A stretch of DNA of 64,000 nt. Source: Escherichia coli phage AZ21. A program made the translations under genes and the position numbers. Location of the stretch: the sequence record LC788708.1. One strand, written 5' to 3'. Under the pieces are notes generated by a model that saw only the letters and a list, made by a program, of their open reading frames with translations, searched no databases and was not told the DNA's origin. Shown here piece by piece: positions 34,904 through 39,336 of this stretch (the stretch's first letter is position 1; every line of letters starts with the position of its first letter).

Positions 34904-35078
34904 CTGAATGCGAATGATAATGAGAATCATTTGCATTTAAAAAGCGGAATGAGAATGATAATAATTCGCATTTAAGAATGGAAGTGAGAATTATTCAGGA
35001 AGTGAAACGATTCTCATTTAAAAAGTGAAACGATTCTCATTTAGAAAGTGAAACGCGAATGATAATGATTCGTATTTA
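34904..35078. promoter_or_regulatory. array of Fur-box-like AT-rich palindromes (GAATGATAATGAGAATCATT family)
   Basis: At least five overlapping units, incl. tandem AAGTGAAACGATTCTCATTTA x2; related copies at 35413, 35805, 39463. Confidence 0.5.
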
Positions 35079-35290
35079 AGAATGGAAGTGAGAAACACTA
35101 TTATTTAAGTTATCCACAGACTTATCAACAGCACGATTTGACTTGACAGAATCCTAGCCATTTTGAGGCGTTATCAACAGACTTATCAACAGCTTATCCT
35201 ACTGTATAAATATACAGTATTCCTATGCAGTGAATAATTCTAATATACAGCTAAAACGCTCTCAAACGCATTCTAACGCGTTTAATTTTG
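35076..35290. repeat. left arm of about 215-bp imperfect inverted repeat (contains DnaA boxes TTATCCACA / TTATCAACA)
   Basis: Hand alignment with reverse complement of 39121-39336 (shared AAGTGAGAARCACTATYATTTAAGTTATCCACA, CAGACTTATC, ACTGTATAAATATACAG, AAACGCATTCTAACG). Confidence 0.75.
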
Positions 35291-35585
35291 GTGGGGATAC
35301 TAAAACAAGGGCAAAATTGGAGGAGGCTTGAAAATTAGTTAGCTCGCTAATGATCACACACGGCGACACGTAACACCCTAACCATTAGCAGGCTAACCAT
35401 CGCGGGCGTGGTCAAATGAGAATGATTCTCATTTGTGGATTGGGGGCGCTTCCTGATAGTTGCGCCCCGTGATTATTATAGTAGGGGGCAACCGTTACGC
35501 TTTGCCCACTCCCGCCACTCATCTTGGTGCCTAGACTTGCGACGGCGTACTAAAAACCGCTTGTACCAGTGATTAAACCATCGTT

Positions 35586-35789
35586 TCATAAATCCTCCTC
35601 CGGTAGTCGATGCGTGATCTTTTCCTCCTCCCCATAGGAATCCACCAAATACTGATAATAACCATCGTGATCATAAATCACTTTATCATATTCCCCACGC
35701 TCGACCGCTTGCCGATTTTCCAACGTATCAGGCACAAAGAAAGTATCAACGGTAACAGTAGTTTTAGTTACAACAATTTTATCACTCAT
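35586..35789 (-). CDS. small acidic protein
   Basis: Fur-like palindrome overlaps its upstream region. Confidence 0.45.
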   Translation of the reverse strand: MSDKIVVTKTTVTVDTFFVPDTLENRQAVERGEYDKVIYDHDGYYQYLVDSYGEEEKITHRLPEEDL

Positions 35790-35915
35790 AATGCCATCGC
35801 CCCTAGAATGAGAATGATTATCAATATCATTGTGAAGCCATTACCAAATCGTAAACGCTGGGAATGTTTCCCAGCGGTATTATTAGACTTATGGCTTTGT
35901 GTTTTTCGCCACCAG

Positions 35916-36116
35916 CTATTCACGGTAGACGCTCCATCCGTCTAGCTTCCATTCTTCCCCCTTGCGAATATTGAAAAACCAATCATTAAAATTGTAACCA
36001 TCTTCTGACATGATCACGCCGTTTTCTTTCATGTACAAAAATTCATCACTAGTAAAATATTGATTACTAACTTTAAAACCTTGTTTCATTTTTTCTAGTG
36101 CTTCATCTTTAGTCAT
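35916..36116 (-). CDS. small hypothetical protein
   Basis: Start overlaps upstream stop (ATGA). Confidence 0.45.
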   Translation of the reverse strand: MTKDEALEKMKQGFKVSNQYFTSDEFLYMKENGVIMSEDGYNFNDWFFNIRKGEEWKLDGWSVYRE

Positions 36117-36457
36117 TGCGCCACCTTTCGAAACGCTGTTTCAATACTATCCGCAGTGGATTGAATATATGCGCCTTTGAGTATCAGCCGCTCGGTGCAT
36201 ATCTTGCGAAAAATATTAATAAAATCGTCCTCATTTTCTGCGATTAATGCCTCACCCATAACCTGAACGTCGCAAGATGCAAAGGTCAAAAATTGAAACG
36301 CTAGTTCACGGGCAACGACCGCATTGATTTTATAATGCGCCTTGCCTTCATAGATATTAATAACGCCCTTATAAGCTGGCGAAAGCTGATTTAAGTAGTT
36401 TGCTAATAATGCCGGACGGCAATTAGCAACAAAACGATTGCCCTCATAAATAACCAT
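36113..36457 (-). CDS. hypothetical protein
   Basis: GGGAG RBS. Confidence 0.5.
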   Translation of the reverse strand: MVIYEGNRFVANCRPALLANYLNQLSPAYKGVINIYEGKAHYKINAVVARELAFQFLTFASCDVQVMGEALIAENEDDFINIFRKICTERLILKGAYIQSTADSIETAFRKVAQ

Positions 36458-36584
36458 TTGATAGTCTCCCGATTAGATAGCCAGATAATAACATAAAGAT
36501 CCCCAATAAAAGAGGATCATTCTTAAATAAGGTGGCGGTAAAACCGCCAACCATTGCAAGGAGAATAACAATAATGCTTTTCAT
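36446..36584 (-). CDS. small membrane protein (about 46 aa, below track cutoff)
   Basis: Hydrophobic MKSIIVILLAMVGGFTATLF; stop overlaps next start. Confidence 0.3.
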
Positions 36585-36793
36585 AGTACCCCACGAAACG
36601 CAGCGTAAAAGGTGGCAAAGTGTTTAACTGTTTCAGCAATCACGTTGCCGCGCTTATCAAATTTCTTTTCTGTAACACGAAAGGCATTTTTATTACGTGC
36701 TACATATTCGATTTTACAATCTTCCCGCTCGAACGTGTTAACATCCACCAGCTTAAAGCCTTTCGAACGTGCAAGAGAAACGTTGCGGATCAT
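36581..36793 (-). CDS. small hypothetical protein
   Basis: AAAGGGGA RBS. Confidence 0.45.
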   Translation of the reverse strand: MIRNVSLARSKGFKLVDVNTFEREDCKIEYVARNKNAFRVTEKKFDKRGNVIAETVKHFATFYAAFRGVL

Positions 36794-36795
36794 TT

Positions 36796-37258: not shown

Positions 37259-37364
37259 TTTAAGCCTCCAAATTTTTGGGAAAATTTTCAACCGTCCTCA
37301 AACGGTGTAAAGGCATTATAACAAAAAAGGCCGCCATAAAAGGCGACCTTTACAAAACTTTACA

Positions 37365-37859
37365 TTAAACTACTTGTAAGGATTCAATATTGAAACATCG
37401 TTTCAGTTCGTCATGCAAAACGGCATATTCATCCCATCGGGTACTATCAGGAATATAAACAAGCTGTTTTAATCGGTTTGCATATATTACCGCTTTGTTA
37501 TCAATTATCTCGACGCCACCATATTTAATAATTAATTTCATGACGGAATTAATAGGATCGCCGCCGTTTACATATGCGCCGGATTTACTTAATTGATAAT
37601 GATAAAGGCTTGCATATACGTTTTCATTTTCATACCATTCGCCAGTCTCTTCGTCTTCATAGCCATCGCTACCAAAACGAGAAGCATTATCAACAGCCAT
37701 TTCATGAGCAAAAGCGTCCAGATCCGTACCAGCAGGAACAAAATATTCCTCGGTATTCCCTTCCCCGCAATAGCCAGTATGACAATCGACTAAAATGATC
37801 ATATCATGTTTAGCCTTGCTCACTTCCCCTAGCGAGAAGCCGTATTTTTCTTCTAACAT
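37365..37859 (-). CDS. acidic protein
   Basis: Start at MLEEKYGF after AGGAG RBS; Asp/Glu-rich. Confidence 0.5.
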   Translation of the reverse strand: MLEEKYGFSLGEVSKAKHDMIILVDCHTGYCGEGNTEEYFVPAGTDLDAFAHEMAVDNASRFGSDGYEDEETGEWYENENVYASLYHYQLSKSGAYVNGGDPINSVMKLIIKYGGVEIIDNKAVIYANRLKQLVYIPDSTRWDEYAVLHDELKRCFNIESLQVV

Positions 37860-37923
37860 AATTAGTCTCCTATTAATTAACAAGGAAATAGTAAAGCGGG
37901 GAAATAATCCCCGCTAGATATTA

Positions 37924-38157
37924 TTACTCGTTTTCGGTGTTAGTGGTAAAAGTAGAGATATCGATACCTTTTACCATTTCATCGATCATCTCAGCGATGT
38001 TAAAACTTTGCACCATTTCTAACATTGCCGCTTCCATAGCCGCCCCTGCTACCGCTTTCGCTTTCTGATTAGTCGGGGCGTACTGGTCAACCGCTACACT
38101 CAGCAGGTTAGCGATCACTACACGACCAATCGGCGTATCAATATAGCCTTTGATCAT
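37924..38157 (-). CDS. 77-aa ORF; probable C-terminal continuation of the 38138..38929 ORF across an A7 run
   Basis: Frame reached by removing one base from the T7/A7 run at 38166-38172. Confidence 0.4.
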   Translation of the reverse strand: MIKGYIDTPIGRVVIANLLSVAVDQYAPTNQKAKAVAGAAMEAAMLEMVQSFNIAEMIDEMVKGIDISTFTTNTENE

Positions 38158-38929
38158 AAACGGTGCTTTTTTTAGCCGCTACTTTCGTGATTTGAGTTAG
38201 TGCAATTTTACCAGCTTCCAGTTTTGCAGCGTTTACAACAGCGGATTTATTAGCGGCAACGATATTAGCGATCTTGGTCATGGTATTTTTTCCTTTGTTT
38301 TCAGTAGTTTGAGTATTAACGCTTTGAGTGTTAGAGCTTACAACCTGTTTTTCAATATTGTCAACTGGTTTTAGTGTAAATCCAGCATTTGCAACGTTTG
38401 ATTCATTCCCATACTCTAAATAATCACTAGGGATCAACATGTTGCCACTAGCGCGTTCAAAACATAACACGCCAGTTGTAGAAATTACATTACTATCAGC
38501 ACTTTTGTAATTAGCTGATAGTTCACGCCAAATGCTAGTTAATAACGATCCGACACTATCAGTCCTGATATTACTTACTTTTGTTGCTGTTACTTGCTCT
38601 TTTTCTTGCACGTTATATAATCGCGCAATGTAACCACTATTAGATTCACTATAACCAACAATGATAAAATCAATATCTCTTCCACGTTGATTGCGGAAAA
38701 TGTGATAATCACGGTTGAAAATTACTAGCGCCCTTTTCTGGTCTAGTAATTGTGTGAAATCTTCAACTGAATAATGAGTACCCTCATCGTCTAAAATTCT
38801 ATCATGAATCTTTTCGATAATAGTAGCGGTATGCTGTACGCTTGCCGCGCTACTACCCTCTAACAGATTGCGCAAACTGCCTTTAATAATAGTGGCGTTT
38901 GCTGGTACTGCAATTCTTACAGTAGACAT
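38138..38929 (-). CDS. first gene of the reversed cassette, hypothetical 263-aa protein
   Basis: GAGGGAG RBS; own promoter upstream. Confidence 0.5.
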   Translation of the reverse strand: MSTVRIAVPANATIIKGSLRNLLEGSSAASVQHTATIIEKIHDRILDDEGTHYSVEDFTQLLDQKRALVIFNRDYHIFRNQRGRDIDFIIVGYSESNSGYIARLYNVQEKEQVTATKVSNIRTDSVGSLLTSIWRELSANYKSADSNVISTTGVLCFERASGNMLIPSDYLEYGNESNVANAGFTLKPVDNIEKQVVSSNTQSVNTQTTENKGKNTMTKIANIVAANKSAVVNAAKLEAGKIALTQITKVAAKKSTVYDQRLY

Positions 38930-38962
38930 TTTATTTTGTCTCCCTCGTTAATCGGTGAGTGA

Positions 38963-38991
38963 ATGATAAGGGTAATTTTCTAGCATAGGCA
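38963..38991 (-). promoter_or_regulatory. minus-strand sigma70 promoter for the cassette (TTGCCT-17-TATCAT)
   Basis: Read on reverse complement; about 35 nt upstream of the 38929 start. Confidence 0.5.
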
Positions 38992-39120
38992 AATATTATT
39001 TTACTTTTTTATTTTCCTTGCCTAGCGTCTAATTTTATGCTAACCGCGCAGCGGTGCAATAAAGAGCAAACCACGGCGAAGCCACCAGCCCGACGCATTG
39101 AGGCTTTACTTTAATATTAC

Positions 39121-39336
39121 CTTACAGCGTTTAGCTCGTTAGAATGCGTTTTGGGCCACTTAAAATTGATTGCAGTTGTTAACACTACCTTTCTACCCTG
39201 TATATTTATACAGTGGAATAACCTGTGGATAAGTCTGTGCAAAAGTCCTTATATCACCGCCTATCGTGTCAAGTTATTTTGTGCTGTGGAAAACATTGTG
39301 GATAACTTAAATGATAGTGCTTCTCACTTAGGCTAA
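39121..39336. repeat. right arm of the about 215-bp imperfect inverted repeat
   Basis: Reverse complement aligns with 35076-35290. Confidence 0.75.

What the first reader, a model, noticed from the sequence alone, without database searches (positions are those of the whole stretch)
35076..39336. Reversed nine-gene cassette bounded by ~215-bp DnaA-box-bearing inverted repeats
Aligned by hand, 35076-35290 and the reverse complement of 39121-39336 share long blocks in the same order: AAGTGAGAA(A/G)CACTAT(T/C)ATTTAAGTTATCCACA, TTGACTTGACA/AACTTGACAC, CAGACTTATC(C/A)ACAG, (T/C)ACTGTATAAATATACAG and AAACGCATTCTAACG. All nine ORFs between them (35586-38929) are on the minus strand, opposite to every flanking gene. 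They have their own sigma70-like promoter (38963-38991) and a different Fur-like operator context. The geometry fits a segment that has inverted, or still inverts, by recombination between the arms. Each arm carries perfect or near-perfect DnaA boxes. No recombinase, transposase or integrase is present, so any flip would rely on homologous recombination or host factors.
Basis: seen in the sequence. Interest (0 to 1): 0.85.

Follow-up and report, generated by a model that had tools for sequence, protein, structure and literature searches.

The report
Known T5 repeat pair; operon flipped elsewhere
The inverted repeats are real but are the already-described DnaA-box repeat pair that brackets the second pre-early operon in the terminal repeat of T5-like phages; the orientation is fixed in this phage's close relatives, although two more distant phage lineages carry the same operon flipped between the same repeats.

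Summary
The window is Escherichia coli phage AZ23, a T5-like phage. The finding lies in its terminal-repeat, pre-early (first-step-transfer) region.

**Observation: confirmed.** The arms have a 132-nt core (35086-35217 and 39198-39329), 81% identical, with alignment score 108 against 19±2.6 for shuffles. Each arm carries two pairs of DnaA boxes and a LexA-box-like palindrome at its inner end.

**Already known.** The arms are orthologues of T5's published IRC-spacer-IRD and IRD'-spacer-IRC' repeats, proposed to form part of the injection stop signal. The genes between them are the T5 011-017 operon, which normally diverges from A2/A1.

**Not an active switch.**
- No recombinase is encoded.
- The arms are only about 78% alike within a genome.
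- All 38 close relatives share this orientation.
- None of 535 matching phage records carries the flipped junction.

**One new point.** In the Klebsiella (Sugarland-type) and Pectobacterium (My1-type) lineages, the homologous operon lies mirror-imaged between the same arms. The breakpoints fall within the inner ~50 bp of the arms. An evolutionary inversion therefore happened at least once, and possibly twice. Published text that I could read describes this only as replacement by genes read in the opposite direction.

**Verdict:** an ordinary member of a known feature, of modest interest.

The parts
35086..35217 (.). Left arm on the injection-stop side; orthologue of T5 IRD'-spacer-IRC' in Repeat Region 3
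   Evidence: 132 nt, 81% identical to the reverse complement of 39198-39329; 90-98% identical to the same-side arm in 38 Type 1 loci, including T5.
39198..39329 (.). Right arm; orthologue of T5 IRC-spacer-IRD in Repeat Region 2
   Evidence: In T5 (L012) the two arms lie 3183 bp apart, against Davison's stated 3180 bp.
35264..35285 (.). Short extra inverted block (AAACGCATTCTAACG) in the left inner flank; partner at 39130-39151
   Evidence: pair I7: 22 nt, 86%.
39130..39151 (.). Partner of the short inner inverted block
   Evidence: pair I7.
35110..35130 (+). DnaA box pair TTATCCACA-GAC-TTATCAACA
35171..35191 (+). DnaA-variant box pair TTATCAACA-GAC-TTATCAACA, 61 bp from the first pair
   Evidence: family D10.
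39224..39244 (-). DnaA box pair TTTTGCACA-GAC-TTATCCACA
39285..39305 (-). DnaA box pair TTATCCACA-ATG-TTTTCCACA
35200..35219 (.). LexA/SOS-box-like palindrome TACTGTATAAATATACAGTA at the inner end of the left arm; lies in the inferred inversion breakpoint zone
   Evidence: 0.03 expected. CTGT-N8-ACAG occurs 3 times in the window; breakpoints fall within 35172-35221.
39196..39215 (.). LexA/SOS-box-like palindrome at the inner end of the right arm
35586..38929 (-). Second pre-early operon (T5 genes 011-017 equivalents), 10-11 ORFs
   Evidence: ORFs. (every tested ORF matches a PHROG). (conserved across T5-like loci).
38138..38929 (-). N-terminal piece of gene 011 (DUF7566), 263 aa
   Evidence: phrog_4263 positions 1-255. 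PF24450 positions 1-257 of 336, E=1e-84.
37924..38157 (-). C-terminal piece of gene 011, 77 aa, in another frame after an A7 run
   Evidence: The gene is intact in T5, Sugarland, My1 and PR1.
36581..36793 (-). Homologue of T5 gene 015 (Ung-dependent nickase)
   Evidence: phrog_4227, E=4e-50. The annotation is also carried by related records.
38963..38992 (-). Sigma70-like promoter just upstream of gene 011, inside the arms
   Evidence: TTGCCT-18-TATCAT, 9 of 12. A promoter upstream of T5 gene 011 is reported as experimentally characterised.
34894..35094 (.). Fur-box-like direct and inverted repeats just outside the left arm; the expected first-step-transfer stop point maps here by inference
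   Evidence: families D1, D3, D4 and pairs I3, I5; 10 of 19 Fur-like matches fall in 34915-35829. Davison's shear point lies 156 nt outside the arm.
34654..34876 (+). Six copies of GTCGGATTYGCACA, probably T5's DRD repeats
   Evidence: family D5.
40819..41226 (+). A2 gene (context; diverges from the cassette)
41602..43272 (+). A1 gene (context)

Best explanation
This is the second pre-early transcription unit (T5 genes 011-017) of a T5-like phage's terminal repeat. It is bracketed by the published IRC-spacer-IRD and IRD'-spacer-IRC' repeat pair. Each arm is a conserved cis-acting module with two DnaA-box pairs and one LexA-box-like palindrome. Shown here: the arms are orthologous across T5-like phages and evolve as separate left and right units under constraint on these motifs. 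The operon between them has its own promoter; its terminator was shown only in the Sugarland locus. The orientation is fixed within each clade. Sugarland-type and My1-type phages carry the homologous operon flipped, with breakpoints in the inner ~50 bp of the arms. Inferred: the arms act as host-protein binding sites that help arrest or anchor the first-step-transfer DNA, which is Davison's untested injection-stop model. Also inferred: their inverted geometry allowed rare homologous recombination to flip the operon once or twice during family evolution. It is not a programmed invertible switch or a mobile cassette.
For: Identity and position: 100% match to phage AZ23, and the region maps to 4.9-10.3 kb of annotated left terminal repeats. 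Match to the published description: 131-bp inverted units, eight DnaA boxes in pairs 3 bp apart, and a variable coding region between them (against my). Orthology to T5's own arms, with 3183-bp spacing. Constraint: 73 of 132 arm columns are at least 90% conserved on both sides. Same-side identity between genomes is 93% (left) and 87% (right), against 78% between the two arms of one genome. Fixed orientation: 38 of 38 Type 1 loci; 0 of 535 records with the flipped junction; 67 Klebsiella-clade records collinear with the flipped form. Inversion evidence: gene order 011, c9, c4, c1 is mirrored. W 35172-35304 aligns inverted to the Sugarland right arm plus inner flank (E=4e-22) and W 35089-35268 to My1's (E=4e-16). 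Gene 011 DNA aligns inverted (E=1e-35), while the outer flanks stay collinear. Promoters sit directly upstream of 011 in both forms, and a terminator closes the operon in L039. T5 genes hegG-017 are deletable.
Against: No experiment shows that DnaA, LexA or any other protein binds the arms, or that they stop injection; the functional part rests on a preprint's hypothesis. The T5 mutant lacking hegG-017 is viable, and I could not determine whether it keeps both arms. Only one of the two inner flanks gives a clear swapped signal (z=21.5 against 7.7); the other is uninformative. The distal parts of the inner flanks look same-side by eye. Exchange of a whole cassette between lineages could mimic an inversion. 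Read-level heterogeneity cannot be examined here.
Confidence: 0.8

Rival explanations
1. It is an active invertible DNA switch: the cassette flips at appreciable frequency within phage populations by recombination between the arms.
For: Inverted repeats bracket a self-contained operon. Both orientations exist across the family, with breakpoints in the arms. In My1 the two inner flanks are very similar to each other, suggesting arm-to-arm exchange in that lineage.
Against: No recombinase is present. The arms are about 78% identical, their shared blocks are interrupted by mismatches, and there is no concerted evolution in Type 1. 38 of 38 close loci and 0 of 535 records argue against polymorphism. 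The flipped form is likewise fixed in 67 Klebsiella-clade records. Flipping would not obviously change expression, because the promoter (and, as seen in L039, the terminator) lies inside the flipped segment.
Confidence: 0.04
2. It is a mobile or transposon-like cassette with terminal inverted repeats that inserted into the terminal repeat.
For: Terminal inverted repeats are present. Gene content between the arms is highly variable among relatives. Davison notes many insertions and deletions there.
Against: No transposase is present. There is no target-site duplication: the sequences just outside the arms, AAGAATGG on the left and AGGCTAAT on the right, differ. The arms occupy the same position in every genome, including distant genera. 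The arms are more conserved than the cargo.
Confidence: 0.03
3. The opposite orientation in Type 2/3 phages reflects replacement by an independently acquired cassette, as the published text reads, and not an inversion of the ancestral segment.
For: Davison reports almost no DNA homology in this region. Only 3-4 of about 10 genes are detectably shared. Extra minus-strand genes occur next to the left arm in Type 2/3. The A2 tree weakly groups Type 2 with Type 3 (64/100), which is compatible with block exchange.
Against: The shared genes keep the same order along the direction of transcription. A 315-nt DNA match lies in inverted orientation (E=1e-35). The window's left inner flank is found next to the right arm in both lineages. 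Collinearity breaks exactly inside the arms.
Confidence: 0.1
4. The DnaA-box clusters mark a replication origin.
For: Eight DnaA-type boxes lie in an ordered array, reminiscent of oriC according to Davison.
Against: T5 origins map near the genome centre, and the replication genes are not expressed during first-step transfer (Davison). The boxes lie in two arms 4 kb apart. A DNA-unwinding element was not looked for.
Confidence: 0.03

Closest known systems
T5 left-terminal-repeat inverted repeats IRC-spacer-IRD (Repeat Region 2) and IRD'-spacer-IRC' (Repeat Region 3), the proposed injection stop signal (Davison 2020, bioRxiv 10.1101/866236, which credits a 1987 paper and the T5 genome paper)
   Same: Same genomic position. 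Same ~131-nt length. Same four DnaA-box pairs with 3-bp spacing. Direct sequence orthology to T5's arms. Same variable operon between the arms.
   Different: Nothing essential; AZ23 is another member. New here: the LexA-box-like reading of the inner palindrome, the breakpoint mapping, and the inference that Type 2/3 phages carry an inversion and not a replacement.
Programmed invertible segments (Hin, Gin, Cin and Fim-type invertons)
   Same: Inverted repeats bracket a DNA segment that is found in both orientations across related genomes.
   Different: No recombinase is encoded. The arms are much longer and only about 80% identical. There is no orientation polymorphism among close relatives. 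Flipping produces no promoter or coding switch.
Evolutionary inversions by homologous recombination between inverted repeats (for example between rrn operons or IS copies in bacterial chromosomes)
   Same: Breakpoints lie inside the repeats. The outer flanks are retained and the inner flanks swapped. Events are rare and each state becomes fixed.
   Different: Here the repeats are short, functional, protein-binding cis elements in a phage terminal repeat, and the flipped unit is a single self-contained operon.

Membership tests
T5-type IRC/IRD DnaA-box repeat pair of the terminal repeat | Lies in the terminal-repeat pre-early region, between A2 and the inner end of the repeat | tested here: met
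   the region maps to 4.9-10.3 kb of annotated left terminal repeats. A2 and A1 lie to the right.
T5-type IRC/IRD DnaA-box repeat pair of the terminal repeat | Two units of about 131 bp in inverted orientation | tested here: met
   132-nt arms, 81% identical, score 108 against 19±2.6 for shuffles.
T5-type IRC/IRD DnaA-box repeat pair of the terminal repeat | Eight DnaA or variant boxes in four pairs, members of a pair 3 bp apart | tested here: met
   pairs at 35110-35130, 35171-35191, 39224-39244 and 39285-39305.
T5-type IRC/IRD DnaA-box repeat pair of the terminal repeat | Constant spacer between the two halves of each arm (52 bp according to Davison) | tested here: inconclusive
   Box pairs are 61 bp apart start to start in both arms (family D10). 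I did not map Davison's exact IR boundaries to check the 52-bp figure.
T5-type IRC/IRD DnaA-box repeat pair of the terminal repeat | Sequence orthology to T5's own arms | tested here: met
   loci L009 and L012 (T5, 121,750 bp): 92% for the left arm and 83% for the right arm, with 3183-bp spacing.
T5-type IRC/IRD DnaA-box repeat pair of the terminal repeat | Acts in arresting first-step DNA transfer | not testable with these tools
   A hypothesis in the literature; no experiment is available.
Programmed invertible switch (inverton) | A site-specific recombinase encoded in or next to the element | tested here: not met
   no recombinase, integrase or transposase family among the cassette proteins.
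Programmed invertible switch (inverton) | Both orientations present among clonal or closely related genomes | tested here: not met
   each orientation is fixed within its clade. Read-level data are not available.
Programmed invertible switch (inverton) | Inversion changes expression (promoter or coding switch) | tested here: not met
   the promoter and terminator lie inside the flipped segment.
Transposon-like cassette | Transposase and target-site duplication | tested here: not met
   (no transposase). (the flanking bases differ).
Transposon-like cassette | Variable insertion site among genomes | tested here: not met
   the same position relative to A2 and the stop-signal repeats in all loci.
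DnaA-dependent replication origin | Replication initiates at the DnaA-box cluster | not testable with these tools
   The literature places T5 origins near the genome centre.

The most novel reading that the evidence does not exclude
The arms are composite landing pads for host DNA-binding proteins: four DnaA boxes and one near-consensus LexA box in each arm, with a cluster of Fur-like boxes at the predicted stop point. They would tether or loop the first-step-transfer DNA. Selection would then preserve the pair of inverted arms themselves, independently of what lies between them. That would explain why the arms persist from Aeromonas to Escherichia phages while the enclosed operon is gained, lost and flipped.
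Probability: 0.2. Interest if true: 0.7.

Novelty: already known. Interest (0 to 1): 0.3.

Why it matters
How T5 halts DNA injection after 8% of the genome has entered is a 60-year-old open question, and these repeats are the leading candidate site. This window adds no new kind of element. The comparative results do sharpen the problem in three ways:
- The arms are conserved as a pair across genera, whatever the orientation or content of the enclosed operon.
- Each arm ends in a near-consensus LexA-type box that the literature I could read does not mention.
- The predicted stop point lies in a cluster of Fur-like boxes.

All three points give concrete binding and mutagenesis experiments.

Tried and rejected
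- Flipped-junction search: no close relative carries the flipped junction.
- More Type 2/3 loci from IMG/VR: returned only Sugarland, IME260 and My1 again.
- Chimeric-arm test: the DnaA-box parts of the arms stay side-specific in Type 2/3, so any crossover lies inward of them. Only four side-specific differences are fixed among Type 1 arms, which limits resolution.
- The window's right inner flank did not discriminate sides.
- Promoter-like sites are not enriched over shuffles (26 against 20.1±4.5), so the promoter call rests on its position and on the literature.
- The A2 tree is equivocal, so the count of inversion events (one or two) stays open.
- Literature searches for LexA or Fur sites in T5, or for an inversion in the pre-early region, found nothing relevant.
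- Davison's 2015 review is not held, so I cannot exclude that it mentions an inversion.
- The Proteus, Vibrio and Aeromonas outgroup cassettes showed no detectable homology to the window's cassette proteins. Only PR1 provides a homologous marker for polarity.
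Full report
**Where this is.** Window 34500-40000 is 100% identical to Escherichia coli phage AZ23 (LC788707.1). It is 80-93% identical to hundreds of T5-like phages. In records with annotated terminal repeats it maps, in reverse orientation, to about 4.9-10.3 kb of the left terminal repeat. A2 is at 40819-41226 and A1 (556 aa) at 41602-43272, both on the plus strand. 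The inner end of the repeat lies near window 34410, and the physical left end would be near 44950 (inferred). The finding therefore sits in the pre-early, first-step-transfer region of a Tequintavirus.

- The repeat finder reports three inverted pairs. A gapped alignment merges two of them into one 132-nt arm per side, 35086-35217 and 39198-39329. It has 104/128 identities and score 108, against 19.0±2.6 for shuffles.
- Five of the window's eleven strict DnaA consensus boxes fall in these 264 nt, where about 0.035 are expected. With three TTATCAACA variants they form four pairs whose members are 3 bp apart, and the two pairs in each arm are 61 bp apart.
- The inner end of each arm is the palindrome CTGTATAAATATACAG. 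The 20-mer TACTGTATAAATATACAGTA occurs only at these two places, against 0.03 expected. From my own knowledge, it differs at one position from the E. coli LexA-box consensus TACTGTATATATATACAGTA.
- All 10-11 ORFs between the arms are on the minus strand. Every ORF tested matches a phage protein family, and none is a recombinase or transposase.

**It is a known feature.** Davison's preprint (bioRxiv 10.1101/866236) describes three items in the T5 left terminal repeat:
- Repeat Region 2, with IRC-spacer-IRD (131 bp).
- Repeat Region 3, with IRD'-spacer-IRC'.
- A variable coding region between them.

It reports eight DnaA or variant boxes in pairs 3 bp apart, conserved in 25 T5-like phages. It credits the first sighting of the boxes to a 1987 paper and the repeat names to the T5 genome paper, and it proposes the repeats as part of the injection stop signal. 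The window's arms are direct orthologues. Against T5 itself they are 92% (left) and 83% (right) identical, and T5's arms lie 3183 bp apart, against Davison's 3180 bp. The enclosed genes are the T5 011-017 operon:
- Gene 011 is DUF7566, here split in two.
- 36581-36793 is the gene 015 nickase family.
- A 2026 preprint states that a promoter upstream of gene 011 is experimentally characterised, that genes hegG-017 can be deleted with only a small-plaque phenotype, and that 011, 013 and 015 are toxic.

Being opposite to the flanking genes is the ordinary layout: this operon diverges from A2-A1-dmp and converges on the early genes across the repeat-rich stop region.

**Does it invert?** Among close relatives, no.
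- All 38 Type 1 loci have the layout left arm, minus-strand cassette, right arm, A2, A1.
- A synthetic flipped junction found no record covering more than 68% of it among 535 matching records.
- Arms within a genome average 78% identity, whereas same-side arms between genomes average 93% and 87%. The arms therefore evolve as separate orthologous units without concerted evolution.
- 73 of 132 columns are at least 90% conserved on both sides. They are concentrated in the DnaA boxes, the palindrome, AAGTGAGAA and TTGACA, which points to functional constraint.

**It has inverted in evolution.** In Klebsiella phages Sugarland and IME260 (L039-L041, L043) and in Pectobacterium phage My1 (L042), homologues of the cassette genes lie on the same strand as A2.
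- The order is mirrored. Gene 011 sits next to the left arm, followed by the c9 homologue and a weak c4 homologue. In My1 the homologue of c1 (T5 016) comes next, towards the right arm.
- An unbiased HSP map shows collinearity from the left up to W 35221 and from the right down to W 39198.
- W 35172-35304 aligns in inverted orientation to the Sugarland right arm plus inner flank (E=4e-22).
- W 35089-35268 aligns in inverted orientation to the same region of My1 (E=4e-16).
- Gene 011 DNA aligns inverted (E=1e-35).
- Flank scores agree. The window's left inner flank matches Sugarland's right inner flank at z=21.5, against 7.7 for its left one. The outer left flank stays on the left.
- The DnaA-box parts of the arms remain side-specific, so the exchange point lies in the inner ~50 bp, which includes the palindrome.
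- Both forms carry a promoter directly upstream of 011, and the Sugarland operon ends in a strong terminator, so the flipped unit is self-contained.
- The flipped form is collinear in 67 Klebsiella-clade records.

**Polarity and number of events.**
- Providencia phage PR1 has its 011 homologue diverging from A2/A1, as in the window.
- Vibrio, Aeromonas and Proteus relatives also have a block diverging from A2/A1, though it is not detectably homologous.
- In Aeromonas and Vibrio that block is bracketed by inverted repeats carrying the palindrome or a DnaA box.
- A1 (200/200) and Dmp (100/100) neighbour-joining trees place Type 1 with Type 3, and My1 outside them. That topology would require two inversion events.
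- The short A2 is equivocal.

One inversion is well supported. A second depends on which tree applies, and exchange of the cassette between lineages remains a rival.

[quoted passage not shown] It never uses the words inversion, LexA or SOS. Searches found no paper describing the inversion. His 2015 review is not held.

**Mechanism.**
- Shown: the arms are a conserved pair of motif-rich cis elements, and the enclosed operon is autonomous, dispensable in T5 and evolutionarily fluid.
- Inferred: the arms bind host proteins, namely DnaA (Davison's proposal) and possibly LexA, and they help arrest or anchor the first-step-transfer DNA.
- Inferred: rare homologous recombination across their inner ends flipped the operon.

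Nothing supports a programmed switch, a transposon or an origin.

**Verdict.** The feature itself is already described and ordinary for a T5-like phage.

Noticed in passing
window 37924-38929 (minus strand): Gene 011 (DUF7566, phrog_4263) is split into a 263-aa and a 77-aa ORF in different frames, directly after an A7 run. It is intact in T5, Sugarland, My1 and PR1. This could be a real frameshift, slippage or a homopolymer sequencing error. The N-terminal part is only about 46% identical to the T5-type, while the C-terminal 77 aa are 94-99% identical, so two N-terminal variants circulate among close relatives.
   Followed up: partly
window 35200-35219 and 39196-39215; also L039, L042, L043, L044, L046: Each arm ends in a near-consensus LexA/SOS-box-like palindrome (CTGT-N8-ACAG). 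It is conserved in Klebsiella and Pectobacterium phages, occurs once in a Proteus phage, and occurs twice in an Aeromonas phage, flanking its cassette. It is not mentioned in the T5 literature I could read.
   Followed up: partly
window 34915-35829 and 44730-44744: Fur-box-like 7-1-7 motifs (TGATAATNATTATCA, up to 3 mismatches) number 19 in the window against 9.7±3.3 expected, and 10 of them lie in this 0.9-kb stretch. The stretch contains the point where the first-step-transfer shear site should map (about 34930, inferred). A perfect box lies about 200 bp from the inferred physical left end.
   Followed up: partly
window 35916-36116 (minus strand): The 66-aa cassette protein gives a weak match to the Thoeris anti-defence Tad2-like domain (PF11195, E=0.005, 17.8 bits, below the cut-off of 25).
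   Followed up: no
window 34654-34876: Six direct copies of GTCGGATTYGCACA at irregular spacing, outside the left arm near the inner end of the terminal repeat. They are probably the DRD repeats of T5 Repeat Region 3.
   Followed up: no
L042 (My1) 4677-4776 and 8512-8611: In My1 the two inner flanks beyond the palindrome are much more alike each other than in other phages, which suggests arm-to-arm gene conversion or a longer repeat in that lineage.
   Followed up: no
L039 4379-4793; L042 4938-5874: Type 2/3 phages carry extra small minus-strand genes between the left arm and the flipped operon. They have no detectable counterpart in the window, so their inter-arm region holds two divergent units.
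   Followed up: no
window 39554-39592: A 15-nt inverted pair (TAGTTATCCACTGGA / TCAAGTGGATAACTA) carries near-consensus DnaA boxes in the promoter-rich region between the right arm and A2.
   Followed up: no
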